A DNA stretch of 64,000 nt from an uncultured Candidatus Saccharibacteria bacterium (GCA_964596395.1 CAZQSY010000005.1:1628-65627), one strand, 5' to 3'; positions 1 to 34,600 are shown, counted from the first letter of the stretch. The notes: generated from the letters alone by a model not told the origin. Numbers and translations are program-made.

Positions 1-466
1 CAACTGTATTCCCGGCAATCAAATTTGGGAAAATCCCCCAAACAGCCATACCGAAAGGAAAATTCCACGGCGCGATGGCAACCACTACCCCATGGGGTTC
101 ATACCTTATTCTATGTAAAGACTCGTGGTCTTCGAACGTTACCTCATCAGCCAAGGCTCTCGGTCCATTTTCTAAAAACCAGGTAAGTTCTTCATCTGTG
201 TATCTGGTTACTTCATAAAAAGCTTCCGTTATGGTTTTACCCGTTTCCAAACTAACAAGTTTCGCGATTTCCTCCTTTTTGTTTCTGAACTCATCCCGAA
301 TCGGTTCAAGCATTTTCACCCGTTCCTTTACGCCAAGTCCTTTCCAAACTACAGTCGCCTTTCTTGCCTTAGATACTTTCTCCTCAATTTCAGTATCGCT
401 TGATGTTTCCACCTCGCCAATATTTGAATACCCGTCGGCTGGATTTGTCGAAAATAACTTAACCAT
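1..466 (-). CDS. Aldehyde dehydrogenase family protein, N-terminal ~155 aa (gene continues beyond window start)
   Basis: Own translation of the minus strand from ATG (revcomp of 464-466): MVKLFSTNPADGY...ETGKTITEA...IRYEPHGVVVAIAPWNFPF...AGNTV, which carries the ALDH N-terminal motifs (PWNFP, GKP/T..EA). It is absent from the ORF track because it is truncated. Confidence 0.6.
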   Translation of the reverse strand, partial: MVKLFSTNPADGYSNIGEVETSSDTEIEEKVSKARKATVVWKGLGVKERVKMLEPIRDEFRNKKEEIAKLVSLETGKTITEAFYEVTRYTDEELTWFLENGPRALADEVTFEDHESLHRIRYEPHGVVVAIAPWNFPFGMAVWGIFPNLIAGNTV

Positions 467-3529: not shown

Positions 3530-4759
3530 TTAATTACCTGTGATTTTCATCAACCTATCGTATTTCACTTTCCTTTCGGATTTCGTGGGCGCGCCGGATT
3601 TCAGGCCGAAACATCCGAAAGCGTAGGCCAGGTCGGCGATGAAATCATCATCAGTTTCTTCTCCTCTATTGCTCACAATCAATTCTATCCCGTTTTCCCG
3701 GGCCAGTTTCATCGTCTGCAACGTTTCCGTAAGCGTGCCAATTTGATTCGGCTTTATAATCATCGCACTGATGCTCTTTTTATCTAAGGCCTTTTGCAGA
3801 AGTTCTTTGTTTGAAACAGTCAGGTCATCGCCGACAATTAAAGTGGCTGGAATTTTTTCTTTGAGGAGCGCGAAACTTTCAAAGTCCTCCTCTTCAAACG
3901 GGTCTTCAATGGAAAATAAATTAAACTCATCGGCTAAACTCAAGTACAAGCCCATGAGTTCGTCTTTTGACAGGACTCTGCCGCCAACTTCATACACCCC
4001 GCCTAGGCGGGGTGTATTTTTGTAAAAAGACGAAGCGGCGGCGTCAATAGAAAAACGAACTACCCCCTCTAGATTATTTTTCCTGACTGCTTCTTGAAGT
4101 AAGAGAAATGGCTCTCGCGGGTCGGTAGTTTTTAGCATAAACCCCCCTTCATGGCCAAGATTTGGGTATTCTCCCGTTTGTTCTTTGAGCATTTCTTTCA
4201 GCGTATTCTGAATTTTTATTCCCACCGAAACAGTTTCTTCAACGTCATCAATCATCGGCACAACCAGATGTTCCTGAAAGGCCAGACCATTGTTAGCATG
4301 CTTCCCGCCCTCCAGTAAGTTCATGAAAAGGTACGGTGTCTTGCGTGATGGTTTTATTTCCGCCAAAGCACGCAAGTATTCAAAGGTTTCCAAACCAGAA
4401 ACTTTCGCCGCCGTTTTGGCGCAAGCGATACTCGCACCAATCATAGCGTTGCCGCCCAGATTGTCTTTATTCTTGGTATCATCAAGCTCAACCATCAGCC
4501 GGTCTATTTCTTTTTGGTCTGAAACTTCTTGGCCTACCAAAACACTGGCAATTTTTTCATTCACGTTTTTTATGGCACTTTGCACACCTCTGCCGTCAGA
4601 ATCGCGCAATTCATGCGCCTCATGTGCGCCCGTAGACGCCCCCGAAGGCACAGCAAAACTTCCCAACATCTCCCCTACCCAAACTGTAACTTTCAAAGCG
4701 GGACTTCCCTTCGAATCTCTTACTTCTTCGGCTGTAATTTTCGTTATTTTATTTTCCAT
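3530..4759 (-). CDS. eno: Enolase
   Basis: 409 aa with DSKGSPALKV..VPSGASTGAHEAHELRD and the SNRGEETDD motif; full-length enolase. Confidence 0.95.
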   Translation of the reverse strand: MENKITKITAEEVRDSKGSPALKVTVWVGEMLGSFAVPSGASTGAHEAHELRDSDGRGVQSAIKNVNEKIASVLVGQEVSDQKEIDRLMVELDDTKNKDNLGGNAMIGASIACAKTAAKVSGLETFEYLRALAEIKPSRKTPYLFMNLLEGGKHANNGLAFQEHLVVPMIDDVEETVSVGIKIQNTLKEMLKEQTGEYPNLGHEGGFMLKTTDPREPFLLLQEAVRKNNLEGVVRFSIDAAASSFYKNTPRLGGVYEVGGRVLSKDELMGLYLSLADEFNLFSIEDPFEEEDFESFALLKEKIPATLIVGDDLTVSNKELLQKALDKKSISAMIIKPNQIGTLTETLQTMKLARENGIELIVSNRGEETDDDFIADLAYAFGCFGLKSGAPTKSERKVKYDRLMKITGN

Positions 4760-13135: not shown

Positions 13136-16114
13136 TTACGCCAAAATATTTATAAGTCTGTTTTTTACGTAGATTGCTCTCTTTATAGGATTGCCAGCCA
13201 TGTGTTTTGCTACATTTTCATCGGCCAGCGCCTTGTTTTTTACTGTTTCTTCCGAATCGCCGGCGTTTACCAATATTTCCGAACGTACCTTGCCGTTTAC
13301 CTGCACGGCGATTTTTACTTCTTCGTCTTTGAGCAATTTTTCTTCCCACTTCGGCCATGGAGATAAATGTATACTTTTCTTTTCGCCAAGTTCATGCCAA
13401 ATATATTCTGTCACATACGGCGCGAAGGGAGCGAGAATTTGCAGAAATTTTTTGAAATCCTCCGTTGAAATATAATCTGCTTTATCCATTTCTCCGGCTA
13501 GCACCATCATAGCCGAAACAGCCGTGTTAAAACGCATGTTTTCAATATCTTCCGAGACTTTTTTGATGGTTTTATGAAGAAGTTTTGAAAGAGGGGAAGG
13601 CAAGGAATTTTTAAGAGTCGTGGGTTCCCTGCCCTCATGACTCCGAGGGCGAAGGCTCAGAAAATTCTTTGCATTCCCCTCTTTGACCTTTTGCCCGATT
13701 CGCCACACTTTTTCTATAAACCTGCGCGGGCCGATGATGCTCTCGGTACTCCAAACCGCCGCTTCTTCGAACGGGCCCATAAACATTTCGTACACGCGTA
13801 GAGTGTCCGCGCCGTAAGTTTTGATGATGTCGTCAGGATTCACCACATTACCTAAAGATTTAGACATTTTTACTCCCCCTTCGCCTAAAATCATTCCGTG
13901 CGAAGTCCGCTTCGCGTACGGTTCCGGCGTCGGCACCAGCTTAAGGTCATACAAAAACTTGTGCCAGAAACGCGAATACAGAAGGTGCAGTGTAGTATGT
14001 TCCATGCCTCCGTTGTACCAATCTACTCCGCCAGGACCCAACTTGGAAGTCCGACTTCCAAGTGACTTGCCAAGCCAATATTTTAAATTTTTCTTGCTTG
14101 CGAATTCTTTATTATTTTTCGGGTCGGTGTAGCGCAAATAATACCAGGAACTCCCGGCCCAGTTTGGCATTGTGTCTGTTTCTCTTTTAGCCGGGCCTTT
14201 GCACTTCGGGCATTTAGTGTTTACCCATTTTGAAATCGAAGCCAGTGGCGACTCGCCGGTATCTGTCGGCTTGTAGCTTTTCACTTCCGGCAATTTCACC
14301 GGCAAATCTTTTTCCGGCACAGGCACCCAGCCGGCATTCAACTTGGAAGTCCGACTTCCAAGCAAGTCCTTCTTCTGGCAATTTTCACAAAACACTAACG
14401 GTATCGGCTCGCCCCAATATCTCTGCCGCGAGAAAACCCAGTCGCGCAGTTTAAATTTGGTAACAATTTTGCCGTCCACAAAATCCGTTATTTTTTTCTT
14501 CGCTTCTTCGGAATTTAAGCCGTCAAACCTGCCGGAGTTTGCAAGAATACCTTCTCCCGCATAAATTTCTAAACCATTCTTAAAAGCCCGCCAATCTCTA
14601 AGCGCTGCTCCTTTTAAGACATTCTCTACCTCTTCCGGTAAAAGCCATTTGGGTTCATGTTTTTCTTTTTCTTCTTCCGATAACTCTATATGTTCACCAT
14701 TCTTCAATTCAAAATAAAGATGGTGAAAATGGGCAAAACGATTTTCTTTTTTCAGAACATGAAAAAACTTTTCGTGAGAACGATACAATTCTTTCACGAA
14801 CACAGGATTCAAGTACCCCGTTTCTTCTTTTATCTCTCTAATGGCCGACTTTACCGAGTCTTCCCCTTCTTCAATTCCCCCGGTTATGAAAGTTATCCAT
14901 CCTCCCTTCTTCCAAAACAAAATTAAATATTTATCAAGAGCCCAATGTTTGACAATCGCGTGCGTTGCATTCCTCTCTATAAACTGAAGCCCCTCCTTCG
15001 GCTTATCTTCTTCGCTGATAAAAATCGGTTCAATGACATTCTTGATTGGCAAATTGTATTTTTTCGCAAACTCGTTATCCCGTTCGTCGTGCGCCGGCAC
15101 AGCCATGATGGCGCCGGTGCCATATTCGGGTAATACATAATCCGCGATAAAAATCGGAATCTCCTCATTGTTTGCCGGATTTACCGCCTTTATTCCTTTG
15201 AGTTCAACGCCGGTTTTTTCTTTGCTCTCGGCTGTACGTTCCATTTCTGTTTTCGTTTTGTTCGCCAGGATGTACTGCCACACCTCGCTCCAGTTGGAAA
15301 TATTATGCCGGAGTTTTTGCACCACCTCGTGCTCGGGCGCCAGCACCAGATAAGTCGCGCCGAAAAGGGTATCCGCGCGAGTAGTGAAAACCTCTATGTC
15401 AAAGGGCACCTTTGACACTTTAAATTTAATCAACACGCCTTCAGACTTTCCTATCCAGTTCCTCTGCTGAATTTTTACCCGCTCCGGATAATCCACCAAA
15501 TCCAAATCCTTATCGAGCCGGTCGGCGTACTTGGTAATCGCGAGCATCCATTGCTCTTTTTCCCTTTTTTCCGTTTGGCTGCCGCAGCGTTCACAGACAC
15601 CCCCAACCGCTTCTTCGTTGGCAAGCCCGATTTTACATTTCGGGCACCAATTTATGTATGACTTCGCCTTGTACGCCAAACCTTTTTTGAAAAGCTGTAA
15701 AAATATCCACTGCGTCCACTTGTAATATTTCGGGTCAGTAGTGTTTATCTCGCGGGGCCAGTCAAAAGAAAAACCAAGTGATTTGAGCTGCCGGCGAAAA
15801 GTATCCGTATTTTTCTTTGTTACCAGCGCCGGCTTCTCCCCCGTTTTTATTGCGTAATTTTCAGTAGGCAGACCAAAAGCGTCCCATCCGATGGGATACA
15901 AGACATTCTGGCCTTCCATTCGCCTTTTTCTGGCGATGATATCCATCGCCGCGTAGCTCCGAATATGGCCGGTATGCAACCCGGCGCCCGAAGGATACGG
16001 AAATTCTACCAGCGGGTAAAACTTTTTCCCCTTATCTGTCGCTCGATAGATTTTTTTCTTTTCCCATTCCTTCCAAACTTTCGGCTCAATTTTTTGGTGG
16101 TCGTAATTTTTCAT
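13136..16114 (-). CDS. leuS: Leucyl-tRNA synthetase carrying an internal NUDIX domain and three small in-frame repeat-element insertions
   Basis: 992 aa. HIGH-type motif PYPSGAGLHTGH, CP1 editing domain TTRADTLFGATY, KMSKS (VKMSKSLGNVV). Extra segments: Nudix box GGIEEGEDSVKSAIREIKEETGY; two LGSRTSKL octapeptides encoded by a 23-bp palindrome; a ~24-aa segment KNFLSLRPRSHEGREPTTLKNSLP encoded by a 70-bp repeat. Confidence 0.95.
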   Translation of the reverse strand: MKNYDHQKIEPKVWKEWEKKKIYRATDKGKKFYPLVEFPYPSGAGLHTGHIRSYAAMDIIARKRRMEGQNVLYPIGWDAFGLPTENYAIKTGEKPALVTKKNTDTFRRQLKSLGFSFDWPREINTTDPKYYKWTQWIFLQLFKKGLAYKAKSYINWCPKCKIGLANEEAVGGVCERCGSQTEKREKEQWMLAITKYADRLDKDLDLVDYPERVKIQQRNWIGKSEGVLIKFKVSKVPFDIEVFTTRADTLFGATYLVLAPEHEVVQKLRHNISNWSEVWQYILANKTKTEMERTAESKEKTGVELKGIKAVNPANNEEIPIFIADYVLPEYGTGAIMAVPAHDERDNEFAKKYNLPIKNVIEPIFISEEDKPKEGLQFIERNATHAIVKHWALDKYLILFWKKGGWITFITGGIEEGEDSVKSAIREIKEETGYLNPVFVKELYRSHEKFFHVLKKENRFAHFHHLYFELKNGEHIELSEEEKEKHEPKWLLPEEVENVLKGAALRDWRAFKNGLEIYAGEGILANSGRFDGLNSEEAKKKITDFVDGKIVTKFKLRDWVFSRQRYWGEPIPLVFCENCQKKDLLGSRTSKLNAGWVPVPEKDLPVKLPEVKSYKPTDTGESPLASISKWVNTKCPKCKGPAKRETDTMPNWAGSSWYYLRYTDPKNNKEFASKKNLKYWLGKSLGSRTSKLGPGGVDWYNGGMEHTTLHLLYSRFWHKFLYDLKLVPTPEPYAKRTSHGMILGEGGVKMSKSLGNVVNPDDIIKTYGADTLRVYEMFMGPFEEAAVWSTESIIGPRRFIEKVWRIGQKVKEGNAKNFLSLRPRSHEGREPTTLKNSLPSPLSKLLHKTIKKVSEDIENMRFNTAVSAMMVLAGEMDKADYISTEDFKKFLQILAPFAPYVTEYIWHELGEKKSIHLSPWPKWEEKLLKDEEVKIAVQVNGKVRSEILVNAGDSEETVKNKALADENVAKHMAGNPIKRAIYVKNRLINILA
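13607..13673. repeat. Family-2 MITE-like element (~70 bp), copy 1, in-frame inside leuS
   Basis: ggaatttttaagagtcgtgggttccctgccctcatgactccgagggcgaaggctcagaaaattcttt. About 80% identical to 18100-18169. AGAATTTT-type terminal inverted repeats and a GC-rich core hairpin (gccctc...gagggc). Confidence 0.6.
14041..14063. repeat. REP-like 23-bp perfect palindrome (copy A), in-frame inside leuS
   Basis: ACTTGGAAGTCCGACTTCCAAGT; encodes LGSRTSKL on the leuS strand just before the conserved VDWY.GG.EH..LHLLY block. Confidence 0.8.
14341..14363. repeat. REP-like palindrome (copy B, 22/23), in-frame inside leuS
   Basis: ACTTGGAAGTCCGACTTCCAAGc, exactly 300 bp from copy A. Encodes a second LGSRTSKL just before the conserved VPVPEKDLPV block. 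Confidence 0.8.
14555..15025 (-). other. NUDIX hydrolase domain (~155 aa) inserted in LeuRS between the editing domain and the ZN/leucyl-specific region
   Basis: Nudix box G-x5-E-x7-REUxEExGU satisfied exactly by GGIEEGEDSVKSAIREIKEETGY (nt 14813-14881). Flanking residues NLPIKNVIEP and GILANSGRFDGL match contiguous E. coli LeuRS positions. Confidence 0.7.
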
Positions 16115-16125
16115 ACCCCTGCGGA

Positions 16126-17166
16126 TTATCTTGCCGGCTTAGGGTAAGGCGGATACATATCCTTGTCTATCGTCCTTTCGAAACACGTTCGGCCGGCTTC
16201 ATGGTCCCAGGATTCATTAACCCCACCCCCAGGATACGGGTAAGAAACCGCGACATCTTTTTCTGGATAACCCATCATAGGCACTGTCCTTCCTCCGCTA
16301 TATTCTCTCCAACCCTTCGGCATCGGCAAAGAGAAAGCGGCGCAAAGCTCAAAAGTAAGTTTCTTTGCATCTTTAACAGCGTATTCGTAAGCCATGCCCT
16401 TTTCAAACTCCGGGTCAACCGGCAAGCTGTAACCCGAAAGAGGGTTAGCCAGGTCAGAAAGTTTTTCGGGCAGTTTCTCTTTTTGCTGCCAGTAGTTTAT
16501 CACTTGATATTGCATATTCATAAGGTCGTTCACCCGCCGGTCGTCAAGACGGAGCTGTCTTTGTTTAAAAGGACTGCCCATTACGGTAAAGCTCCAGATA
16601 ATCACCAGCAAGACCAGCGCGCTCGACTTGATTGAGGCAGAAAGTCCGATGCCGACGCCGAAAACCTTTTCTTTCTTTTTGAGTTCAAAAATAAAATAAA
16701 AGCCCACATACAAAGCGACTATCAAAACCGCTGTTACTTTCAATATAAATCTCGTGGTTACTTCGCCCGAGATGAAGTACCTTATCAGGGCCACCAGGTC
16801 TACCGCCGCCACAATTGAAGACAGAAAAAGTATGACGTATATCACCCACCTTCGCACAATTTCATCGCCCGCTCCTATCACCCCCCTCCCGTACTTCTTC
16901 CAAAAACGAGAGACAATCAAAAAAACCGGAAAGAAAATAATGAGCGTGGCCAGCGCGAAGCGCATCCCTTCGTAATCGTAAACCGAGTATCCGTACTGGT
17001 AAGATGAATTCAAGACATCCGGGAAACGCTTGTTGAGCGTCTCAAAAACGAGATTAAGGAAAGATGTTACGGAAGTTATTAAAGTTATGAGTAATCCAAG
17101 AGACAGGAAAAAGAATCCCGCAGAAACCTTTTGCCTGACTGGCTGCAAAACTTGTTGTGTTTCCAT
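16126..17166 (-). CDS. hypothetical polytopic membrane protein
   Basis: 346 aa with several N-terminal TM segments and a C-terminal soluble region; no family recognised. Confidence 0.4.
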   Translation of the reverse strand: METQQVLQPVRQKVSAGFFFLSLGLLITLITSVTSFLNLVFETLNKRFPDVLNSSYQYGYSVYDYEGMRFALATLIIFFPVFLIVSRFWKKYGRGVIGAGDEIVRRWVIYVILFLSSIVAAVDLVALIRYFISGEVTTRFILKVTAVLIVALYVGFYFIFELKKKEKVFGVGIGLSASIKSSALVLLVIIWSFTVMGSPFKQRQLRLDDRRVNDLMNMQYQVINYWQQKEKLPEKLSDLANPLSGYSLPVDPEFEKGMAYEYAVKDAKKLTFELCAAFSLPMPKGWREYSGGRTVPMMGYPEKDVAVSYPYPGGGVNESWDHEAGRTCFERTIDKDMYPPYPKPAR

Positions 17167-17213
17167 AAGGAATAATATATCATATTTCCGCGAGTATATT
17201 AAGGTGCAAAAAT

Positions 17214-17585
17214 ATGGACAAGAAGTTTGACGATTTTTCTAAAAAAATAACAAGATGGATAGGGTCCCCTTCTTCTCTGATAATGCACTCTCTGTTTTTC
17301 GCGGGAATTTTTTTCCTGAAAATATTCGGGGTATCTTCCGACGAAATTCTCTTGATCCTCACCACGATTGTATCGCTCGAAGCGATTTACTTGTCGATTT
17401 TCATACAAATGACCGTAAACAGGCACACCAAAGAGCTCAAAGAGGTCTCTAAAGATGTTGAAGAAATCCAGGAAAGCGTGAGTGAAATAGAAGAAAGCGT
17501 GGAAGAAATTGAAGAAGATGTCGGGGACATTGTGGAAGATATCGAAGACGGAGACAAAACAAGAATCATCGAGAGCTCCAAATAG
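17214..17585 (+). CDS. DUF1003-family small membrane protein
   Basis: 123 aa. Two TM helices with ILTTIVSLEAIYLSIFIQMTVNRHTKE matching the DUF1003 core, followed by an acidic coiled-coil tail. Confidence 0.5.
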   Translation: MDKKFDDFSKKITRWIGSPSSLIMHSLFFAGIFFLKIFGVSSDEILLILTTIVSLEAIYLSIFIQMTVNRHTKELKEVSKDVEEIQESVSEIEESVEEIEEDVGDIVEDIEDGDKTRIIESSK

Positions 17586-18567
17586 CGGTATTGGCCAGCG
17601 GGACAAAACGACTGTTTGATTTTTCAAAAATACACAACTCGCCTGATTCGGTTTTACCGCCGAGTTCCCGCATCGCGTCTTCCAGCGCGTATCCTAAGGC
17701 GAGCGAAGAAGAATCGGTAGCGTAAGAAGTAAGTATTACAAAAAGAGGATTGTCGCTCAAGACTTTTCTAGCATACGCGAGGAGTTTCGGTAAATCTTTT
17801 TCTATCTTCCACACTTCTCCCTTCGGCCCGCGGCCGAATTTCGGCGGGTCCATCATCACGCATTCATACCTGTTGCCGCGCTTCACTTCTCTTTCCAAAA
17901 ATTTCAAAGCGTCGTCCAAAATAATGCGCATCGGCATTCCCCCAAGCCCGGAAATTTTTTGGTTCTCCTTTACCCATTCCAGTATCTGCTTTGAAGCATC
18001 CACATGCGTGACCTCCGCCCCAGCCCGCAGAGCAAACAAACTCGCCACTCCGGTGTAGCCGAACAAATTCAAGAATTTAATCTTGGGTTGCCTCGGGGAA
18101 GAATTTTTAAGAAACGTGTGGGTTCCCTGTCCTTTTGTCTCCGAGGGCGCAGTTTCAAGAAAATTCTTTCCCGAGGCAATCCCTTTTATTTTTTCTTCTA
18201 TAAAATCCCAATGGCTGGCCTGCTCGGGGAAAAAACCCAAGTGGCGAAAGGGCGTGGGGGAAGCGAAAAATTTTGTGCCCTTGTAATTCATTTCCCATTT
18301 TTTGAGCAAGGACTCCCCTTGCTCATTTTTACTCCTCATTTCCCAGCCACCTCTCGCACCATCCTTCCCCGCCAAAAATTTCCCATCCGCCTCTGCCCAT
18401 TCTTTTACAAAAGTTTTCTGCCATAGAGCGCTTTCATACGGCCGCGCGAAAGTATACGGCCCAAATCTCTCGAGCTTCTCCCCTCCGCCGGTATCTAACA
18501 ATTCATAATCCCGCCAGTCATCGGCGCAGAAAATTTTAATTTCTTTTTTCATTCTAATATTATGCAT
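17566..18567 (-). CDS. Class I SAM-dependent rRNA methyltransferase, RlmI/YccW-like (PF10672), with in-frame 70-bp element insertion
   Basis: LNLFGYTGVASL (motif I), DASK, MDPPKFG (RlmI DPPKF motif). Extra ~25 aa KNFLETAPSETKGQGTHTFLKNSSP just before motif I. The start is probably the internal ATG giving MKKEIKIF (18552). Confidence 0.7.
   Translation of the reverse strand: MHNIRMKKEIKIFCADDWRDYELLDTGGGEKLERFGPYTFARPYESALWQKTFVKEWAEADGKFLAGKDGARGGWEMRSKNEQGESLLKKWEMNYKGTKFFASPTPFRHLGFFPEQASHWDFIEEKIKGIASGKNFLETAPSETKGQGTHTFLKNSSPRQPKIKFLNLFGYTGVASLFALRAGAEVTHVDASKQILEWVKENQKISGLGGMPMRIILDDALKFLEREVKRGNRYECVMMDPPKFGRGPKGEVWKIEKDLPKLLAYARKVLSDNPLFVILTSYATDSSSLALGYALEDAMRELGGKTESGELCIFEKSNSRFVPLANTAIWSSR
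18100..18169. repeat. Family-2 MITE-like element (~70 bp), copy 2, in-frame inside the RlmI-like methyltransferase gene
   Basis: agaatttttaagaaacgtgtgggttccctgtccttttgtctccgagggcgcagtttcaagaaaattcttt aligns with 13607-13673. Confidence 0.6.
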
Positions 18568-20436: not shown

Positions 20437-21879
20437 TTATTCATCCAATATCTTGAAATCACTACCGGGGACTATTTCGCGGCCGTGTGTGCGGATATAG
20501 TAAGCAAAAACGGCGCCTAAAGCCAAGAACGCGCCAAAGGCGACAATCGGCCAATAATTTGTTTTTCTTTCTTCTTTGCCGGAATTAATTTCTCCCACCT
20601 GCGCCAAAAGATTTTCGGGGGAAATTTCTGGTTCTAGATTTTCACGCAAAGGCTTAACTTCTGTATCCGCAAGAGATATCTTTGCGGACCTGGCGGAAGT
20701 CACTGCTTTCTTTGCCGGAACATACGCAAAAGATGGGTAATCAAACACCGTCTCGCCTAAAGAATTGGAAAGCACGAGAGTATCTTTGTCTCCTTCGGAA
20801 AAATTAGTAAGTTTTGAAGATACCGTTATTTTCGTTTTGGGCCTTATTATCGAATTTTTAGGAAAAACAAATTTCTTCCACGCGCTCGACAAAATCCAGC
20901 CGGAAACATCAGCTTCTACCGAAGTGTTGTTGGCAATTTCCACGAAGACATCCGCGCCGCTGCCGACATTTGAAATGACGATATCGTCTGAAACAACCTT
21001 CAAGGTAATTTTATCCGAAGTGTCGGGCGTTTCCGACATATAACTTTCAAAACAATCCAGAGTAACCACGTACTCGCCCGGGTACTCGTAAACATGAAAA
21101 TATTTTTCCGGAATCATGGGTTTTTTAGGCGTTTCAATAAAAGCGCCATCGCCGAAATTCCAAAAATATTTTCCGCAAAAATATTTCACGGTGTTTTCGG
21201 CTTTGAATTCCGTCGGCACGCCTGCGACCACCGAAGATTTGACGATAATTTTTGTTTTGTTCGGCAGGGGCTTAAGCGTCGGCTCTGTCTTGCCGCCGGA
21301 AGAGCCAGAGCTGCCACCGGAACTACCGGTGGTACTCTCGGTTTCATTTTTGTTTTCATCCCCACTATTATTCTCATTTTCCCCAGCCCCATCGCCCGAA
21401 TCTGTATTTTCTTCCCCCGGCGTTGGCGAAGCGGCAACCCAAGACCCGTCTATAAATTGAGAGGAATTGCCGTCTGTGGCAGAGCCGTCTATATTTACCG
21501 AACTTACCTCTTCCCCCGAAGAATTTTTCAGAATCACCGTGTCTGCCGAGACCTTTATATTAAGAGAACTTTTGAAAACCGGAAATGCCGCCGAGCTAAA
21601 GTCGGCCGGCACTTTGGCTACAATTCCAAAACCTTGCTTGGGAATCAAACTGGCGCCTGAATCGACAGCCGAAATCCCGTGGCCGTTGACCTGCGCGCCT
21701 GAATCCAAAATTTTATAAGTTGTTATATCTATATCCGAATCGGTATTGTTGTAAACCTCGACCCACTGGCTTGAGGTCGGAGAATATTTGACCTCGGTTA
21801 TAACAATACCCGCCCAAGCGACACCCCACCAAAAGAACAATGCGCATCCCACGACAAACGAGAGAATTCTTTTAGACAT
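20437..21879 (-). CDS. Cell-surface protein with two lamin-tail (LTD) domains, Gly/Ser-rich linker and C-terminal TM anchor
   Basis: Signal peptide. LTD signatures IVITEVKYSPTSSQWVEVYNNT...ITTYKILDSG and VISNVGSGADVFVEIANNT...VSGWILSS. C-terminal hydrophobic anchor WPIVAFGAFLALGAVFAYY. Confidence 0.6.
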   Translation of the reverse strand: MSKRILSFVVGCALFFWWGVAWAGIVITEVKYSPTSSQWVEVYNNTDSDIDITTYKILDSGAQVNGHGISAVDSGASLIPKQGFGIVAKVPADFSSAAFPVFKSSLNIKVSADTVILKNSSGEEVSSVNIDGSATDGNSSQFIDGSWVAASPTPGEENTDSGDGAGENENNSGDENKNETESTTGSSGGSSGSSGGKTEPTLKPLPNKTKIIVKSSVVAGVPTEFKAENTVKYFCGKYFWNFGDGAFIETPKKPMIPEKYFHVYEYPGEYVVTLDCFESYMSETPDTSDKITLKVVSDDIVISNVGSGADVFVEIANNTSVEADVSGWILSSAWKKFVFPKNSIIRPKTKITVSSKLTNFSEGDKDTLVLSNSLGETVFDYPSFAYVPAKKAVTSARSAKISLADTEVKPLRENLEPEISPENLLAQVGEINSGKEERKTNYWPIVAFGAFLALGAVFAYYIRTHGREIVPGSDFKILDE

Positions 21880-24651: not shown

Positions 24652-24674
24652 ACTTGGAAGTCCGACTTCCAAGT
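24652..24674. repeat. REP-like 23-bp palindrome (copy C), left boundary of the RAYT/SDR insertion; overlaps the putative RAYT promoter
   Basis: ACTTGGAAGTCCGACTTCCAAGT, 31 bp upstream of the tktC start. Its TTGGAA (24654-24659) lies 17 bp upstream of TGgTATAAT (24674-24682). Confidence 0.8.
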
Positions 24675-24682
24675 GGTATAAT

Positions 24683-25315
24683 TTGGCTATGAGGAAACAT
24701 AAATTCGTGGAGGGAGAATACTACCACATATATAACCGTGGAACAGAAAAAAGAAAAATAATCCTAGACGAATACGACCTAGACCGTTTTCTAGAAAGCA
24801 TGAAAGAGTTCAACACATTAGAACCTATAGGAAGTATTTACGAACAATCTTTCATAAAAAAGGAACTTGGAAGTCCGACTTCCAAGTCCAAACTGGTATC
24901 AATAATATCCTACTGCATAAACCCAAACCATTTTCATATGCTGATTACTCCCCTAGTAGAAAAGGGGATAGAAAAGTTTATGCAAAGAATTGGTGGTTAT
25001 ACTAAATATTTTAACGAAAAATATAAAAGAAACGGGGTTCTGTTTCAAGGTAAATTTAAATCAAAACATGTCTATACAGATAATAGATATTTGCTTCACT
25101 TAAGCGCTTACATAAACATGAACAACCGCAACCGACTTGGAAGTCCGACTTCCAAGTTGAGTAAATCGAGCTTGGAAGAATACACTAAAGGCGAAAAGGG
25201 TATCTGTAACATGGATATAGTCTTGGGTCAGTTTGAAAACGGAAAAGAGTATCTAAGGTTTTCTTTGGAATCCTGGCAAGATACGCAGGAAAGAAAAAAA
25301 GCTCTTGAAATGTAA
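24683..25315 (+). CDS. REP-associated tyrosine transposase (RAYT; IS200/IS605-like HUH-Y1), carrying two in-frame REP copies
   Basis: YYHIYNRG (cf. RAYT YHVTQRG), HUH motif NPNHFHMLITP (cf. SNHVHLLLTP), GGYTKYFNEKYKRNGVLFQGKFKSKHVYTDNRYLLHLSAYIN (cf. YTRYINRRYGRTGHLWQGRFKS...EYLLACSRYIELNP). The likely true start is the ATG at 24689. Confidence 0.75.
   Translation: MAMRKHKFVEGEYYHIYNRGTEKRKIILDEYDLDRFLESMKEFNTLEPIGSIYEQSFIKKELGSPTSKSKLVSIISYCINPNHFHMLITPLVEKGIEKFMQRIGGYTKYFNEKYKRNGVLFQGKFKSKHVYTDNRYLLHLSAYINMNNRNRLGSPTSKLSKSSLEEYTKGEKGICNMDIVLGQFENGKEYLRFSLESWQDTQERKKALEM
24865..24887. repeat. REP-like palindrome (copy D), in-frame inside the RAYT gene
   Basis: ACTTGGAAGTCCGACTTCCAAGT encoding ELGSPTSK. 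Confidence 0.8.
25135..25157. repeat. REP-like palindrome (copy E), in-frame inside the RAYT gene
   Basis: ACTTGGAAGTCCGACTTCCAAGT encoding RLGSPTSKL, near the RAYT C-terminus. Confidence 0.8.
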
Positions 25316-26090: not shown

Positions 26091-26113
26091 ACTTGGAAGT
26101 CGGACTTCCAAGT
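26091..26113. repeat. REP-like palindrome (copy F, centre G = inverted orientation), right boundary of the RAYT/SDR insertion
   Basis: ACTTGGAAGTCGGACTTCCAAGT, 2 bp after the tktN stop and 10 bp before the SDR start. Confidence 0.8.
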
Positions 26114-28156: not shown

Positions 28157-28812
28157 ACCGTTATTTTATCATTGCGCAGTTCAGAAAACAAAGCCACCGT
28201 TCTTCCGAAGTCCTTTTCGGCAACGATAAAAATGAATTCAGTCGGCGTCGACACGAGCTCTTCTATGTTGATGCCGGCCCGGGCAGTGACGGAAAGAAGG
28301 GAAAAGAAAGTGTTCGGCATGCCGAACACGCTGGGGAAAAGGGATATGCCGATGGCTGCCAGCCCGCGGTTTTTTATTTTCGGCTTCATTTTGAAGTGTT
28401 TCAAGATTCTGCTTTCCAGATTTGAAGAACAGATGATGTCGGTCTCGGTCGTGCCTATGGTAATCGTGAGAAAATCTTCTCCGGAGACGGAAATATTTTT
28501 GTGGAGCGACTCAAGCTCGAGTATAAACCGGCCGGTTTTTTCGTAAACCAGCTCGGAGAGGGGCAATCTGGTTGAGATATTTTTTATGTCCACGCTGTAT
28601 ATCATCGGCGTCCCCCGCTTGAGCTCCTTCTTGAGTCGCGACAGGGATACCACCAAACTCGCAATCGTGACTTTTTTTCTGGCCAGGGCTTCTACCTTTT
28701 CACGAATGCGATACGCGTAACTCGACATATTCATATAGCCGTTGGTAAGCGCGAAATAGGCCTCGATTTCCCGAAGCATTGTTTCCCGTACGGCCGATTG
28801 TATCTTTATCAC
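28153..28812 (-). CDS. ACT-domain-containing regulatory protein (aspartokinase regulatory-domain-like)
   Basis: GMPNTFFSLLSVTARAGINIEELVSTPTEF resembles an ACT ligand-binding motif. Confidence 0.35.
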   Translation of the reverse strand: MIKIQSAVRETMLREIEAYFALTNGYMNMSSYAYRIREKVEALARKKVTIASLVVSLSRLKKELKRGTPMIYSVDIKNISTRLPLSELVYEKTGRFILELESLHKNISVSGEDFLTITIGTTETDIICSSNLESRILKHFKMKPKIKNRGLAAIGISLFPSVFGMPNTFFSLLSVTARAGINIEELVSTPTEFIFIVAEKDFGRTVALFSELRNDKITV

Positions 28813-31657: not shown

Positions 31658-31697
31658 ATTTTAAATTATATCAAAAGCCCCAAAAAGTGCTATCATA

Positions 31698-34600
31698 TTG
31701 CCAATGGAAACTTCAGAAGTAAGCTTCATTCACCTCCACACTCACAGCCATTATTCCCTGCTGGACGGCCTTTCGAAGCTCAAAGACCTCATATCTCTAG
31801 CTAAAAAAAACAAAATGCCGGCGCTGGCGATTACCGACCACGGCAACATGTACGGAGCCATTGAATTCTATAAACTCGCCAAAAAAGAAGGTATCAAGCC
31901 GATTATCGGCGTTGAAGCGTATATGACGGCCGGTTCGCGTAAAGACCGCACAACCGAGGCCGGAGGAACTAAAAGGTATTACCACCTAACCCTGCTCGCT
32001 AAAAACTTAGAGGGGTACAAGAACCTTATCCGGCTGGTAACCATCTCAAACCTGGAGGGTTATTACTACAAACCCCGAATGGACAAAGAAATCCTTCGCG
32101 AGTACAGCGGGGGCGTCATCGCCCTCTCGGGCTGCATGGGCGGGGAACTTTCGCAGACGGTGCTGAAAGGAGATATGGAAAAAGCAGACAAGCTGGTGCG
32201 GGAATACCAGGATATTTTCGGCAAAGAAAATTATTTTATAGAAATACAGAGCCATCCTTCGGTTGAAGGCGACAAGCACCTGCGAGACGCGTTAATCGAG
32301 CTCGGCAAAAAACACGGCATACCGGTGGTGGCCACGCAGGATTCGCACTATCCCTGCAGCGTTGACCACGAAGCGCATCACACGCTTCTTAAAATCAACA
32401 CGCAAAGCTACGACAGCGAAGCAAAGTTTGAATTTTCGGAAGATGATTTTTCGCTAATCAGCACCGAGAAGGCCGTGGAGGTCTTCAAAGAAATCCCGGA
32501 AGCGGTGACAAACACTATGAAGGTCGCCGATATGTGCAATCTAGAACTCGAACTCGGCAAATGGGTCTTCCCGGATTTAAAGATAGAAGAAGGAAAAACT
32601 TACGACCAAAAACTGCGCGAGCTGGCGTACGAAGGATTCGAGAAAATCGGCGCCGAAAAAACGCCGGAAGTCCTGGAGCGGGTGGAGTACGAACTCCAAA
32701 TAATACAAAAGAAGGGCTACGCGCCGTATTTCCTGGTGGTGAGCGACCTTTTGCGCTATGCCAAAGAGAACAATATCCTCACGGCGATTCGCGGCTCGGT
32801 GGCCGGTTCTGTGGTCACGTATCTTACCGGCATTACCAAAATTAATCCGATTGAATACAAACTCCCGTTTGAAAGATTCTTAAACCCCTTCCGCCCTTCC
32901 CCGCCCGATATCGACATGGATTACGCCGACAACCGCCGCGACGAGATGATTGAATACGTGAAGAAAAAATACGGAGAAGACAAGGTGGCGCAAATAGGAA
33001 CTTTCGGCACGATGATGGCCCGCGGCTCCGTGCGCGATGTGGCCCGCGCCCTGGGCTACGAATACTCGGTCGGCGACAGAATTTCAAAAATGATTCCGCT
33101 CGGTTCGCAAGGCATGCCGATGACCATAGAACACGCCATGGAAATCGTGCCGGAACTCAAAGAAGCGTACGAAAAAGAAAAAGATACGAAAAAAATCATA
33201 GACCTGGCAGAAAAACTCGAAGGGTGTGTGCGGCACATCTCGGTGCACGCGGCCGGCGTAGTTATCGCGCCCAAGCCGCTTTACGAATACGTGCCGACCC
33301 AACTCGACCCGAAGGGGGGAAAAATCATCACTCAATACGACATGTATAGTGTGGAAGATGCCGGGCTTTTGAAATTTGATTTTCTCGGCATTAGAAACCT
33401 CGCCATCCTAGGAGACGCGATTAACCTGGTAAAAAAATTTTACAATATTGATATTGACATTGAACGCATCCCGCTGGACGACAAAAAAACATTCGCGCTT
33501 TTAGCCCGCGGCCAGACCGAAGGACTCTTTCAGCTAAATGGCGCGGGTATGACCAGATTCCTCAAAGAGCTTCGCCCTTCTTCCATCCACGACATCAACG
33601 CGATGGTGGCCCTTTACCGGCCGGGGCCGATGGAATCAATTCCGGAATACATCAAGCGCAAGCACGACCGCAAATTCGTGAAGTACCTCGACCCGCGCAT
33701 GAAAAAATTCCTGGGCGAATCCTACGGGCTTATCGTGTACCAAGACGACCTCTTGTTCTGCGCCATAGAACTGGCCGGCTACAACTGGGAGGAGGCCGAC
33801 AAATTCCGCAAAGCGGTCGGCAAGAAAATTCCCGAAGAAATGGCGGCGCAGTATGAAAAATTTACCAAGGGGATCATCGCCAACGGCCAGACCCCCGAAT
33901 TTGCCGAGAAACTGTGGAAACTTTTTGAGCCATTCCAGGCCTACGGTTTCAACAAAGCGCACGCCGCGAGCTACGGCCGGGTCGCCTACCAAACCGCTTA
34001 CATGAAAGCAAACTTCCCGGTGGAATACATGACCGCCATTCTCACCGCCGAATCGGGCGACGTGGAGAAAGTGGCCGTTATCATCAACGAATGCAAGAAC
34101 ATGAAAATTCCGGTGCTGCCCCCGTCGATAAACGAAAGCTTCGGCGGATTCACGGTTATCGGGCACGAGAACGGGGGCGAAAAACCCACGCCGGAAGCCA
34201 CGGCCAAGGCGGGGAAAATACGATTCGGGCTGCACACGATTAAAAATCTCGGCACCGACATCGCCGACGCGATTATCGCCGAGAGAAAGACGGGAGGAAA
34301 ATTCAAATCAATCGGGGACTTTCTAGACAGAATCAAACACAAAAACTTAAACAAAAAATCCATGGAAGCTCTCATAAAATCCGGCAGTATGGACGAATTC
34401 GGAGAAAGAGGCGCGCTCTTGGGAAACCTCGAAGACATGCTCGCCTACCACCGCGAATCGGCGAACCAAAACAAAAATCAGATTTCCCTTTTCGGCGGAA
34501 TGCCCGAGTCGCAAACAGTCACGTACAAACTTAAAGATTTCCCCGCCGCCAAGCCGCAGGAAAAACTGGCCTGGGAGAAAGAATTATTAGGGCTTTATAT

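What the first reader, a model, noticed from the sequence alone, without database searches (positions are those of the whole stretch)
13607..18169. Second ~70-bp MITE-like element inserted in-frame into leuS and an RlmI-like methyltransferase
13607-13673 and 18100-18169 are ~80% identical. They have AGAATTTT-type terminal inverted repeats and a GC-rich core (gggttccctg...ctccgagggcg). Both are in-frame on the coding strand. They add ~24 aa beginning KNFL and ending (T/F)LKNS(L/S)P to LeuRS (anticodon-binding region) and to the methyltransferase, directly before its SAM-binding motif I.
Basis: seen in the sequence. Interest (0 to 1): 0.75.

Follow-up and report, generated by a model that had tools for sequence, protein, structure and literature searches.

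The report
Hairpin repeat inside essential CPR genes
A roughly 70-base hairpin-forming DNA repeat, found in at least 45 genomes of ultra-small (Patescibacteria/CPR) bacteria, sits in-frame inside essential genes such as leuS; its core is conserved far more than the host genes, while each copy has its own self-complementary flanks.

Summary
Two copies of a ~70-nt element lie at 13602-13670 (in leuS) and 18099-18169 (in an RlmI-like methyltransferase). Both are open in the host reading frame.

The element belongs to a dispersed family. The exact core occurs in more than 117 loci, with 93 bona fide copies in about 45 Patescibacteria genomes. About one quarter lie inside housekeeping genes and most others fill operon spacers. 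Orthologues with and without the insert exist at both window sites.

- Copies A and B are translated in different frames through the core, so conservation is at nucleotide level.
- Every copy carries distal arms of unrelated sequence that are self-complementary. There is no target-site duplication.
- Between orthologues the unit is 87-98% identical, with third codon positions at 86-100%, against 37-52% in the rest of the gene. The arms diverge at about the neutral rate yet stay paired.
- About 88% of copies are antisense to local transcription.

Best reading: a Rickettsia-palindromic-element-like selfish palindromic repeat, translated where it sits in genes, whose stem is extended and kept paired by fold-back copying. 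A host function for the conserved unit is not excluded. No Rfam family or paper describes it.

The parts
13588..13684 (+). Copy A, whole hairpin (distal arms plus conserved unit). It lies inside leuS and encodes LeuRS residues ~811-843 on the minus strand.
   Evidence: Inverted repeat I18 has arms 13588-13611 and 13661-13684, 24 nt, 92% complementary. Fold energy is -45 to -52 kcal/mol, z -4.6 to -5.2. CM hit 13586-13686, 96.3 bits.
13602..13670 (+). Copy A, conserved ~69-nt unit: AAGGAATTTTTAAGAGTCGT-GGGTTCCCTGCCCTCATGACTCCGAGGGC-GAAGGCTCAGAAAATTCTTT. It is translated as KNFLSLRPRSHEGREPTTLKN.
   Evidence: The conservation profile of 93 copies drops to about zero information outside this unit. 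Alignment A3. Translation.
13622..13650 (+). Copy A, GC-rich core (GGGTTCCCTG..CTCCGAGGGC).
   Evidence: Pattern match. The same core is found in >117 genome loci.
13588..13601 (+). Copy A, left distal arm (site-specific). It pairs with 13671-13684.
   Evidence: Among 4 orthologous leuS copies, 8 pairs changed on both sides and 99.3% of cells are paired.
13671..13684 (+). Copy A, right distal arm (site-specific).
18088..18179 (+). Copy B, whole hairpin. It lies inside the RlmI-like methyltransferase gene and encodes residues ~130-160 on the minus strand.
   Evidence: Arms TTGCCTCGGGGAAGAATTTT / AAAATTCTTTCCCGAGGCAA. Fold energy is -44 to -54 kcal/mol, z about -6. CM hit 18082-18185, 85.2 bits.
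18099..18169 (+). Copy B, conserved ~71-nt unit. It is translated as KNFLETAPSETKGQGTHTFLKN, in a different frame through the core than copy A.
18088..18098 (+). Copy B, left distal arm. It pairs with 18170-18179.
   Evidence: In methyltransferase orthologues the arms are unrelated in sequence but self-complementary in each of 5 lineages.
18170..18179 (+). Copy B, right distal arm.
13136..16114 (-). Host gene leuS (LeuRS, 992 aa, with a NUDIX insert).
   Evidence: ORF. Pfam. Orthologues.
17566..18567 (-). Host gene: class I SAM-dependent (RlmI-like) methyltransferase, 333 aa.
   Evidence: ORF. Pfam PF10672 and PF03602. PDB 2igt, E 1e-63.

Best explanation
This is a member of a previously undescribed family of short palindromic repeats of Patescibacteria (CPR). 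The closest analogy is the Rickettsia palindromic elements.

The heritable unit is about 68 nt: AAnAATTT-tAAGaGTCGT-GGGTTCCCTGtCCTtaTGaCTCCGAGGGC-GAAGgCTCaGAAATTnTT. It has spread to many unrelated places. It persists only where it is tolerated: surface loops or linkers of housekeeping proteins, where it is simply translated in whichever frame is open, and the spacers of tightly packed operons.

Shown:
- Dispersal across genomes and unrelated genes.
- Presence and absence at orthologous sites.
- Translation-compatible copies in three frames.
- Absence of target-site duplications.
- Copy-specific complementary arms.
- Nucleotide-level conservation of the unit.
- Orientation bias.

Inferred:
- The unit is or was mobile without a classical cut-and-paste transposase signature.
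- Once the unit is in place, its short terminal inverted repeat lets a nascent DNA strand fold back and copy its own flank (intramolecular template switching, or 'quasipalindrome correction'). This adds or overwrites an inverted copy of one flank, which builds a site-specific stem. Repeated copying of one arm onto the other would let the arms drift at the neutral rate yet stay perfectly paired.
- The unit stays constant because only intact units propagate or convert other copies, or because it has a cis function (see rivals).
For: **Family and distribution**
93 loci have the full hairpin, from about 45 CPR species genomes, with up to 12 or more per genome.
- The CM finds 111 hits in 738 kb of these loci.
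- There are no true copies in viral contigs (one hit that lacks the flanks, judged a chance match), and no matches in the phage or plasmid collections.

**Insertion polymorphism**
- Methyltransferase and LeuRS orthologues exist with and without the insert.
- Relative to the solved homologue 2igt, the methyltransferase insert replaces 4 residues.

**Nucleotide element, not a protein motif**
- 25 internal genic copies use three frames on one strand (16, 3 and 4 copies) plus 2 copies on the other strand.
- Hosts include LeuRS, PheRS-beta, RsmH, MnmA, LigA, UvrC, a Mur ligase and a CCA/poly(A) polymerase.

**Arms**
- Distal complementarity has a median score of 12.5, against 3.0 for partner-swapped controls. 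95% of copies exceed the control 95th percentile.
- 22 of 28 consensus pairs show double changes.
- Distal arm 12-mers recurred only in three copies: L067 and L095, which share one arm and look like the same site, and L073 with L022.
- No direct repeats flank the hairpin. Junction variants such as GATT..AATC are inverted, not direct.

**Arms are at least partly added**
- The MYG1|Obg spacer is 9-10 nt when empty (L102, L068). When filled (L013) it is arm, unit and inverted arm.
- The window's empty site 31658-31703 keeps ATTATATCAAA, which forms the left arm in L098 and L066.

**Evolutionary rates**
- In leuS the unit is 87-94% identical and its third positions 86-100%. The rest of the gene is 60-72% and 37-48%.
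- In the methyltransferase, three of the five orthologues (L125-L127) were fetched by protein homology, so their unit is unbiased by the DNA pattern; L062 came from the pattern scan. The unit is 91-98% identical (third positions 91-100%), against 68-75% (44-52%) for the rest of the gene.
- The methyltransferase arms are only 20-77% identical, yet self-complementary in all five lineages.
- In the four leuS copies, 8 stem pairs changed on both sides, 99.3% of cells are paired, 0 of 500 shuffles reach this, and slid controls give 47-62%.

**Background**
- The window is enriched in short perfect palindromes: 17 observed against 2-6 in shuffles.
- 'Empty' orthologous sites often hold unrelated small palindromes.
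Against: - No transposase, autonomous parent or fresh (strain-level) insertion was found, so mobility is inferred from distribution only.
- The very strong conservation of the unit at synonymous positions across species is not expected of a decaying selfish relic. It needs either frequent inter-copy conversion or a function.
- The 88% orientation bias is unexplained. Stop-free frames are equally common on both strands: 1.23 versus 1.10 of 3.
- Fold-back copying is supported only by three or four anecdotal filled/empty comparisons and by the rate argument. An automated test of which arm is ancestral gave 3 left, 1 right and 20 ties.
- In LeuRS the filled-minus-empty length is about 22 aa. That fits overwriting of existing codons rather than addition.
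Confidence: 0.55

Rival explanations
1. The conserved unit is a host-beneficial structured nucleic acid. It would be a strand-specific single-stranded DNA hairpin (for example acting in replication, repair or chromosome organisation) or an antisense RNA. Purifying selection would maintain it at each site. The long stem would be selected because the function needs a stable hairpin.
For: - The unit is 87-98% identical between orthologous copies, while third codon positions of the same genes are saturated.
- The conservation pattern follows the fold. The apical loop varies, and unpaired core bases are invariant.
- Conserved wobble positions (GAGTC/GGCTC; G[T/C]CCT[T/C]/GAGGGC) pair only on the strand reading GGGTTCCCTG. 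In the inner stem there are 152 G.T against 28 A.C.
- 88% of copies share one orientation relative to genes and GC skew.
- The fold z-scores are -4.6 to -6.2.
Against: - No Rfam family matches.
- No promoter-like site lies next to the window copies.
- The favoured strand is antisense to mRNAs, so an RNA role would need antisense transcription.
- In the distal arms, G.T versus A.C is not significantly skewed: 60 against 44, p=0.14.
- Arms evolve at about the neutral rate, which is faster than expected for selection-driven compensatory change.
- Many orthologues do well without the element.
- At least 8 other, unrelated insert families occupy the same LeuRS site, as expected of a permissive site rather than a functional one.
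Confidence: 0.25
2. It is a classical non-autonomous transposon (MITE) mobilised in trans. Its transposase would target the apex of pre-existing palindromes or hairpins, so the site-specific arms would be the two halves of the target.
For: - Short conserved inverted termini, AAnAATTT/AAATTnTT.
- Empty orthologous sites often contain small perfect palindromes. LeuRS site 2 has TGTCAAAGG-GCA-CCTTTGACA in the window, TTTCGGGTGT-CCA-ACACCCGAAA in L081 and TTTCCGCTAG-GTCTTGT-CTAGCGGAAA in L120. The P0202 empty site is centred on AAGAATTCTT.
- Several core families occupy the same sites.
Against: - There is no target-site duplication of any length.
- The interior, not the ends, is the most conserved part.
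- Empty operon spacers of 9-21 nt have no room for both arms and show no palindrome (L102, L068, L085, L104).
- No related autonomous element was seen.
Confidence: 0.12
3. The element is removed at the RNA level (intron-like excision of the hairpin) or bypassed by the ribosome, so it never reaches the protein.
For: - It forms a very stable hairpin in either strand.
- Analogous hairpin inserts in yeast mitochondria are bypassed (own knowledge: Magnusiomyces 'byp' elements).
Against: - All 25 internal genic copies are stop-free and keep the host frame. Sequence variants match the frame used.
- Unselected intergenic copies have only about 1.1-1.2 open frames of 3.
- Ten operon-spacer copies were examined. 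In nine, distinct complete genes flank both sides, not halves of one gene; for L114 no downstream ORF was found.
- No ribozyme or intron family matches.
Confidence: 0.03
4. It is an ancient shared protein motif or domain, not a nucleotide element.
For: The peptide FLETAPSE.KGQGTHTFLKN is well conserved among methyltransferase orthologues.
Against: - The same DNA is read in three frames, giving unrelated peptides.
- Most copies are intergenic.
- Third codon positions are conserved.
- A peptide search of 1.8 billion proteins finds only repetitive chance hits.
Confidence: 0.01

Closest known systems
Rickettsia palindromic elements (RPE; Ogata et al. 2000, 2002, as summarised in PMC10969869)
   Same: - Short palindromic repeats with several sub-families.
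- Dispersed in a small, AT-rich, reduced genome.
- Repeatedly inserted in-frame into unrelated housekeeping genes, including aminoacyl-tRNA synthetases, and also found in intergenic DNA.
- No obvious transposase.
   Different: - The hosts are an unrelated phylum (Patescibacteria) and an unrelated sequence family.
- The unit is about 68 nt rather than about 100-150 bp.
- RPE families are described as each encoding a conserved peptide, whereas here one strand is read in all three frames.
- Each copy has site-specific, covarying stem extensions.
- The unit is more conserved than the synonymous sites of its host genes.
- There is a strong orientation bias.
- Whether RPEs share these last properties was not checked here, because the primary papers are not held.
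Bacterial MITEs (Correia/NEMIS, ERIC, RUP, Nezha and others)
   Same: - Small, non-coding and multi-copy.
- Hairpin-forming, with terminal inverted repeats.
- Intergenic and occasionally intragenic, with in-frame fusions (PMC10969869; PMC2759123 listed).
   Different: - No target-site duplication.
- The ends are the least conserved part and the centre the most conserved.
- No autonomous IS relative was found.
REP / REPIN elements mobilised by RAYT transposases
   Same: - Palindromic repeats without target duplications.
- Located between genes of operons, where they form hairpins.
   Different: - REPs are extragenic and 20-40 nt long, with a conserved GTAG or CGTC head and conserved stems (PMC3733652, abstract).
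- Here the stems are site-specific, copies sit inside genes, and the conserved part is the apical 60-70 nt.
- No RAYT was looked for.
Mitochondrial GC clusters and repetitive hairpin-forming elements (for example sponge RHEs, PMC2800124 listed)
   Same: GC-rich hairpin cores that invade AT-rich compact genomes, including coding regions and other hairpins.
   Different: The hosts here are free-living or episymbiotic bacteria. The family is conserved across many species, and each copy has long site-specific arms.
Quasipalindrome template-switch mutagenesis (Ripley; Lovett laboratory; own knowledge)
   Same: This mechanism converts imperfect inverted repeats into perfect ones by copying one arm from the other. 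It would explain arm growth and apparent compensatory change without selection.
   Different: It is known as a point-mutation hotspot mechanism in E. coli and T4. It is not known as a process that builds 10-25-bp stems around a mobile core. It is proposed here by inference only.

Membership tests
Classical MITE | Small (<~600 bp), non-coding, multi-copy | tested here: met
   The unit is ~68 nt. There are 93 or more copies, with up to 12 or more per genome.
Classical MITE | Conserved terminal inverted repeats that define the element ends | tested here: inconclusive
   Only AAnAATTT/AAATTnTT is moderately conserved. Even these positions vary with compensation, and pairing continues into site-specific flanks.
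Classical MITE | Direct target-site duplication flanking the element | tested here: not met
   The longest common direct run flanking the hairpin is 3.83, against 3.82 in controls. Junction variants GATT..AATC are inverted, not direct.
Classical MITE | Related autonomous IS with the same ends, encoding the transposase | not tested
   No systematic search was possible and none was noticed in the 8-kb loci.
Rickettsia palindromic elements (as a kind: protein-coding palindromic repeats) | Palindromic repeat inserted in-frame in unrelated protein-coding genes at permissive sites | tested here: met
   There are 25 internal genic copies in 12 or more protein families. The methyltransferase insert replaces a 4-residue linker of 2igt and is modelled as an unstructured, low-pLDDT loop.
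Rickettsia palindromic elements (as a family) | Sequence homology to RPE-1..10; host genus Rickettsia | not tested
The host is Patescibacteria, so family membership is not claimed.
REP/REPIN | Extragenic; 20-40-nt imperfect palindrome with a conserved GTAG or CGTC head | tested here: not met
   Copies occur inside genes. The conserved part is a ~68-nt unit with variable outer stems. CGTC occurs only in one sub-family and is internal.
REP/REPIN | Cognate RAYT (TnpA_REP) gene in the genome | not tested
Curated structured RNA families (Rfam 15) | Match to a covariance model at the gathering score | tested here: not met
   There were 0 hits in the window. Only generic miRNA-hairpin hits appeared, far below threshold.
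Intrinsic terminator | GC-rich hairpin followed by a T-tract, downstream of genes | tested here: not met
   The terminator-like scan reports neither element hairpin as a terminator. The only call touching copy B (18081-18098) is a small stem inside its left arm whose T-run is the element's own AAGAATTTTT. About a quarter of copies lie inside ORFs.
Self-splicing intron or ribozyme | Recognisable catalytic core; no constraint on reading frame | tested here: not met
   No Rfam match. All internal genic copies are in-frame and stop-free.

The most novel reading that the evidence does not exclude
The ~68-nt unit is not merely selfish. It would be a strand-specific functional nucleic-acid module of CPR bacteria, acting as single-stranded DNA or antisense RNA. 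Purifying selection would hold it constant even inside essential genes. It would actively remodel its neighbourhood by fold-back copying, rewriting adjacent codons into an inverted copy of the opposite flank. That would make it a self-extending hairpin that couples a conserved apical 'head' to a site-specific stem.
Probability: 0.2. Interest if true: 0.85.

Novelty: new variant of a known kind. Interest (0 to 1): 0.68.

Why it matters
'Protein-coding palindromes' have been regarded as a peculiarity of Rickettsia. This element shows the same phenomenon, on a wide scale, in the Candidate Phyla Radiation. It occurs in aminoacyl-tRNA synthetases, DNA ligase, UvrC and rRNA/tRNA-modifying enzymes.

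It explains part of the puzzling small insertions that make CPR proteins longer than their homologues. It also warns annotators and structure predictors that such segments are repeat-derived.

The evolutionary signature is unusual. The core is frozen at synonymous sites, while the stem drifts at the neutral rate yet stays perfectly paired. This offers a natural system to separate selection on nucleic-acid structure from mutational palindrome maintenance (template switching) in organisms with minimal repair machinery.

If the unit proves functional, it would be a new class of cis element embedded in coding DNA.

Tried and rejected
- **Rfam.** The whole window at gathering thresholds, and 13400-13900 at E<=10, gave only generic miRNA-like hairpin hits.
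- **Literature.** Seven full-text searches combined Patescibacteria, CPR or Parcubacteria with palindromic, hairpin, MITE, in-frame or RPE. None found a description. One search failed on syntax. The Ogata 2002 paper is not held.
- **Peptide-level searches.** A concatenated three-frame peptide found 1 weak hit among 6 candidates. The 39-aa LeuRS segment, searched against 1.84 billion representatives, gave 9 repetitive chance hits. The third protein search and the single representative job were therefore spent with no gain.
- **Identifying the source genome.** The clusters carry no names, and the P0001 look-up is not on record.
- **Vectors.** Viral contigs gave one hit without the flanks, judged a chance match. 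blastn against phages and plasmids gave no match.
- **Separating replication from transcription orientation with local GC skew.** The two are confounded: 71 copies are concordant, 8 discordant.
- **Stop codons as the cause of the orientation bias.** Rejected, because both strands have equal numbers of open frames.
- **AATT as a 4-bp target duplication.** Rejected, because variant junctions are inverted rather than direct.
- **Arms as nested copies of other repeat families.** Rejected; only three of 20 arm 12-mers were found at another locus, and two of those (L067, L095) look like the same site.
- **Automated test of which arm is ancestral.** Inconclusive: 3 left, 1 right, 20 ties.
- **Promoter scan next to the copies.** Nothing was found.
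- **AlphaFold model of the methyltransferase.** Overall confidence is low (mean pLDDT 59.8). It is used only to note that residues 133-158 are unstructured.
- **First RNAfold-based stem delimitation.** It over-extended in AT-rich DNA and let in high-GC chance hits. It was replaced by anchored extension.
- **Coordinate correction.** An early notebook entry mis-read copy B's left arm by 10 nt (18078). The correct start is 18088.


Full report
**1. The observation**

The two segments exist as described. They share a 32-nt GC-rich core at 13620-13651 and 18118-18149. The window holds 2 matches, and 100 dinucleotide-preserving shuffles gave none. The repeat finder reports 80% identity over 45 nt (D15).

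Both copies lie inside long minus-strand ORFs and leave them open:
- 13136-16114 is a 992-aa LeuRS, by Pfam tRNA-synt_1, the LeuRS editing domain, Anticodon_1 and an inserted NUDIX domain.
- 17566-18567 is a 333-aa class I SAM methyltransferase, by PF10672 and PF03602. Its best solved relative is 2igt, E 1e-63.

In the methyltransferase, query residues 128-160 stand in for only four residues (149-152) of 2igt, immediately before the KFLNLFGYTG motif I. An AlphaFold model has low overall confidence (mean pLDDT 59.8). It shows residues 133-158 as an unstructured, low-confidence loop between helix 114-130 and strand 164-168.

In LeuRS the insert lies in the length-variable stretch between the VWR helix and HKTIKKV, just before Pfam Anticodon_1.

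**2.

- The palindrome is longer than 70 nt. Copy A has 24-nt arms, 13588-13611 and 13661-13684, 92% complementary (I18). Copy B has arms TTGCCTCGGGGAAGAATTTT / AAAATTCTTTCCCGAGGCAA, giving a hairpin at 18088-18179. The outer halves of these arms are unrelated between A and B.
- Both strands of both copies fold far better than shuffles, at -44 to -54 kcal/mol with z -4.6 to -6.2.
- The shared DNA is read in different frames. Copy A gives ..LSLRPRSHEGREPTT.. and copy B gives ..LETAPSETKGQGTHTF... Only the ends (KNF....LKN) coincide, because small indels restore the frame. The conserved object is therefore DNA or RNA, not a peptide.

**3. A large family in Patescibacteria**

About 20 hits in high-GC Actinobacteria and Proteobacteria lack the flanks and are chance or coding matches.

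93 copies have the full architecture. They come from about 45 MAGs labelled Nomurabacteria, Paceibacterota, Parcubacteria, Patescibacteria or Saccharibacteria. One genome (MFTY01) has at least 12 copies.

A covariance model built from 92 copies gave these results:
- Only the two copies in the window, at 96 and 85 bits. The next hits are the reverse strands of the same two sites (21.5 and 17.7 bits), then a 16-bit hit elsewhere.
- 111 hits in 738 kb of the fetched loci. Eight of these had been missed by the exact pattern.

Nothing was found elsewhere. Rfam has no such family. Viral contigs gave one hit that lacks the flanks. The phage and plasmid collections gave no match.

The information profile shows a conserved unit of about 68 nt: AAnAATTT-tAAGaGTCGT-core-GAAGgCTCaGAAATTnTT. 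Outside it, sequence conservation falls to zero.

**4. Where the copies sit**

25 copies are clearly internal to long ORFs. Another 8 lie within 40 codons of the start of the open stretch, so they are probably just upstream of the true start.

Host proteins are housekeeping enzymes:
- LeuRS (two different sites), PheRS-beta, RsmH and MnmA (two sites).
- NAD-dependent DNA ligase, UvrC, a Mur ligase and a CCA/poly(A) polymerase.
- FAD-linked oxidases and the RlmI-like methyltransferase.

Of the 60 copies not in long ORFs, 38 lie between two co-directional genes. There the hairpin fills the spacer, 0-20 nt from the upstream stop and the downstream start. Ten such sites were inspected. In nine the flanking ORFs are different complete genes, for example DnaQ-like|MnmA, MYG1|Obg, MetAP|x and ScpA|ScpB; for L114 no downstream ORF was found. 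In L013 the stop codon and the ATG lie at the very base of the stem.

**5. Presence and absence at orthologous sites**

- Methyltransferase orthologues (about 65-74% identical) either carry KNFLETAPSE.KGQGTHTFLKN at the same point or lack it entirely.
- In 120 LeuRS orthologues, the site between VWRIGxKV and LxKLLHKTIKKV takes several states. It can be empty. It can carry this element in frame 1 (P0121, P0122, P0124, P0131), frame 2 (P0238) or frame 0 (P0181, P0197, P0148). It can carry at least eight other, unrelated insert families.
- One of those other families (LFHGSHSNLNVVNE..) also occurs at the methyltransferase site.
- P0147 keeps only the two termini with the core deleted.

These are permissive hot spots that have been colonised repeatedly.

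**6. The site-specific arms**

Beyond the conserved unit, the flanks of each copy are complementary for a median of 15 further base pairs.
- In the distal region there are 1482 Watson-Crick pairs, 60 G.T, 44 A.C and 86 other mismatches.
- With partners swapped between copies, the complementarity score falls from a median of 12.5 to 3.0. 95% of real copies exceed the control's 95th percentile.
- RNAalifold finds 28 pairs, and 22 of them show double changes.
- Distal arm 12-mers recurred at another locus in only three of 20 copies tested; two of these, L067 and L095, share one arm and look like the same site. Within one genome, all arms differ.
- There is no direct repeat outside the hairpin: 3.83 against 3.82 in controls. 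At the unit boundary, variants are inverted (GATT..AATC) rather than direct. So there is no target-site duplication.

**7. Filled versus empty sites at the DNA level**

- In operon spacers the arms are extra sequence. The MYG1|Obg spacer is CAT-CTTAAGATT-CTA in L102 and CAT-ATTTAAGATA-CTA in L068. In L013 it is CAT-GTAAAATTAAGAAAAT-[unit]-GATTTTCTTAATTT-TAC. That is, a spacer-like left arm plus a new inverted copy.
- The window's own empty site 31658-31703 retains ATTATATCAAA. In L098 and L066 this forms the left arm, and its inverted copy appears on the right.
- In LeuRS the filled-minus-empty difference is about 22 aa. That suggests the arms overwrite existing codons there.
- Many 'empty' sites hold an unrelated small perfect palindrome. 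LeuRS site 2 carries TGTCAAAGG-GCA-CCTTTGACA in the window (15397-15417), TTTCGGGTGT-CCA-ACACCCGAAA in L081 and TTTCCGCTAG-GTCTTGT-CTAGCGGAAA in L120. The element is present there only in L084.
- The window as a whole has 17 short perfect palindromes (stem >=9), against 2-6 in shuffles.

**8. Evolutionary rates: the most telling result**

Four orthologous leuS copies (window, L119, L081, L053) were compared.
- The host proteins are 58-77% identical. Their third codon positions are saturated at 37-48% identity.
- The 63-nt unit is 87-94% identical, and its own third positions are 86-100% identical.
- L119 was retrieved by protein homology and differs from the search pattern, so this is not an ascertainment artefact.

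The result is replicated at the methyltransferase site. Three orthologues were fetched by protein identity (L125-L127); L062, found by the DNA pattern, was added.
- The unit is 91-98% identical (third positions 91-100%).
- The rest of the gene is 68-75% identical (third positions 44-52%).
- The arms are only 20-77% identical, which is about the neutral level.
- Each lineage's arms are nonetheless self-complementary: GCCTCGGG/CCCGAGGC, GCGAGCTTGAGG/CCTCAAGCTCGC, GAATTTGGCA/TGCCAAATTC, CGAATCTGGCA/TGCCAGATTCG and AAACAGCC/GGCTGTTT.

In the leuS quartet, 8 of the 10 variable stem pairs changed on both sides. 99.3% of cells are paired, 0 of 500 shuffles reach this, and slid controls give 47-62%.

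So the unit is under nucleotide-level constraint or is continually homogenised. The arms drift freely but are kept paired.

**9. Strand and orientation**

About 76 copies are antisense to local genes, meaning the mRNA-sense strand reads GCCCTCGGAG..CAGGGAACCC. About 10 are sense and 7 are in mixed contexts.

Stop codons do not explain this bias. Unselected intergenic copies have 1.23 open frames on the core strand and 1.10 on the other.

Conserved wobble positions in the inner and apical stems pair only on the core strand, with 152 G.T against 28 A.C. In the distal arms the asymmetry is not significant: 60 against 44, p=0.14.

Gene orientation and GC skew are confounded in 8-kb loci. Whether the bias tracks replication or transcription is therefore open.

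In RsmH the element occupies the same site in opposite orientations in different genomes: L019 versus L056 and L113.

**10. Interpretation**

The data establish a dispersed, insertion-polymorphic, nucleotide-level palindromic repeat that is translated when it lies inside genes. This is the same kind of thing as the Rickettsia palindromic elements (PMC10969869), but in Patescibacteria. It does not meet the MITE definition, because there is no target duplication and the ends are less conserved than the centre. It does not meet the REP definition either.

I favour (0.55) a selfish palindromic element whose stem is built and maintained by fold-back (template-switch) copying. Four observations fit this:
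- The arms are site-specific.
- They are sometimes demonstrably added as inverted copies of one flank.
- They extend until they meet constrained coding sequence.
- They evolve at about the neutral rate while staying paired. That is expected from conversion between arms but not from slow selection-driven compensation.

These last steps are inference.

The frozen unit and the orientation bias keep a functional reading alive at 0.25: an ssDNA or antisense-RNA module. Targeting of pre-existing hairpins by an unknown transposase is possible (0.12). RNA-level removal (0.03) and a protein motif (0.01) are effectively excluded.

**11. Novelty**

No Rfam family matches, and seven full-text searches found no paper describing this element. 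I rate it a new variant of a known kind. It is RPE-like, with three unusual properties: a site-specific covarying stem, a unit more conserved than synonymous sites, and a strong orientation bias.

Noticed in passing
window 14041-14063, 14342-14362 (both in leuS), 24652-24674, 24865-24887, 25135-25157, 26091-26113: A second palindromic family, ACTTGGAAGTC(C/G)GACTTCCAAGT, has 6 copies. Its stem is a perfect 10-11 bp with a 1-nt loop. In LeuRS it is read in-frame twice as LGSRTSKL. Unlike the element studied here, its flanks are not complementary.
   Followed up: partly
window 15397-15417 (inside leuS): A perfect hairpin, TGTCAAAGG-GCA-CCTTTGACA, sits in the coding sequence. Orthologous LeuRS genes carry unrelated perfect palindromes at exactly this position (L081, L120, L122). 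L084 carries the ~68-nt element there. A related TGTCAAAG../..CTTTGACA palindrome with 23-bp arms occupies LeuRS site 1 in L061.
   Followed up: partly
window 18303-18325 (inside the methyltransferase gene): A hairpin, TGAGCAAGG-actcc-CCTTGCTCA, encodes NEQGESLLKK. This mini-insert is present in some methyltransferase orthologues and absent from others. The same protein family also shows variable SLDSARDKT and GNPWGNSLKG inserts.
   Followed up: no
window 13136-16114; LeuRS residues 403-504: LeuRS carries an inserted NUDIX hydrolase domain (PF00293), shared by nearly all of its closest 120 orthologues. About ten orthologues additionally carry DUF559/MTES endonuclease-like domains (PF04480, PF18741) and reach 1100-1350 aa.
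   Followed up: no
LeuRS orthologues P0121-P0240, site equivalent to window ~13580-13700: The same loop of LeuRS is occupied in different lineages by at least eight other insert families. Examples are NFSGPRVAR..GLNQTIQN, SPDAFxQSLGPSLRSATPSQKH, SSGLTLPGVxGGTH, FSSLRPSxEYRGGTLGKLK, SFAGSLS..LGSSACE, LFHGSHSSLNVVNE..AYAE and TSPQPSPERRGGSFPFQGKAGDEV. Several begin with NF and end with QN/KN, like this element. L062 has yet another hairpin insert.
   Followed up: partly
window 3992-4017, 28310-28329, 39463-39483, 39998-40017: There are further perfect palindromes: ATACACCCCGCCT|AGGCGGGGTGTAT, GTGTTCGGCA|TGCCGAACAC, TGTCAAGGAC-g-GTCCTTGACA and CCTGCCTGCC|GGCAGGCAGG. Overall the window has 17 perfect short-loop palindromes, against 2-6 in shuffles.
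   Followed up: no
window 21096-21171: A hairpin has arms GAAAATATTTTTCCGGAATC / GAAATTCCAAAAATATTTTC around a different GC-rich centre. It is a weak CM hit (14 bits) with fold z -1.7. It may be another hairpin-element family or chance.
   Followed up: no
window 52856-53458: Tandem repeats with a 240-nt period, in 2-3 copies 70-74% identical (D1/D2). This is probably a repeat-containing coding region.
   Followed up: no
L019 versus L056 and L113 (RsmH genes): The element occupies the same site of RsmH (about codon 88-99) in opposite orientations in different genomes. This means either independent insertions or in-situ inversion between the arms.
   Followed up: no
L037, L116 (JAMPXW010000002.1) and P0055: Contigs and proteins labelled 'Burkholderiales bacterium' carry bona fide copies and a CPR-type methyltransferase. 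Several 'Saccharibacteria' labels sit on genomes whose LeuRS is 76% identical to the window's. These look like taxonomic mislabels of Paceibacteria-like MAGs.
   Followed up: no
L057 3088-3187 and 3234-3334; L001 542-643, 963-1071, 1805-1906: Copies of the element can cluster. There are two copies 47 nt apart in L057 and three within 1.4 kb in L001.
   Followed up: no
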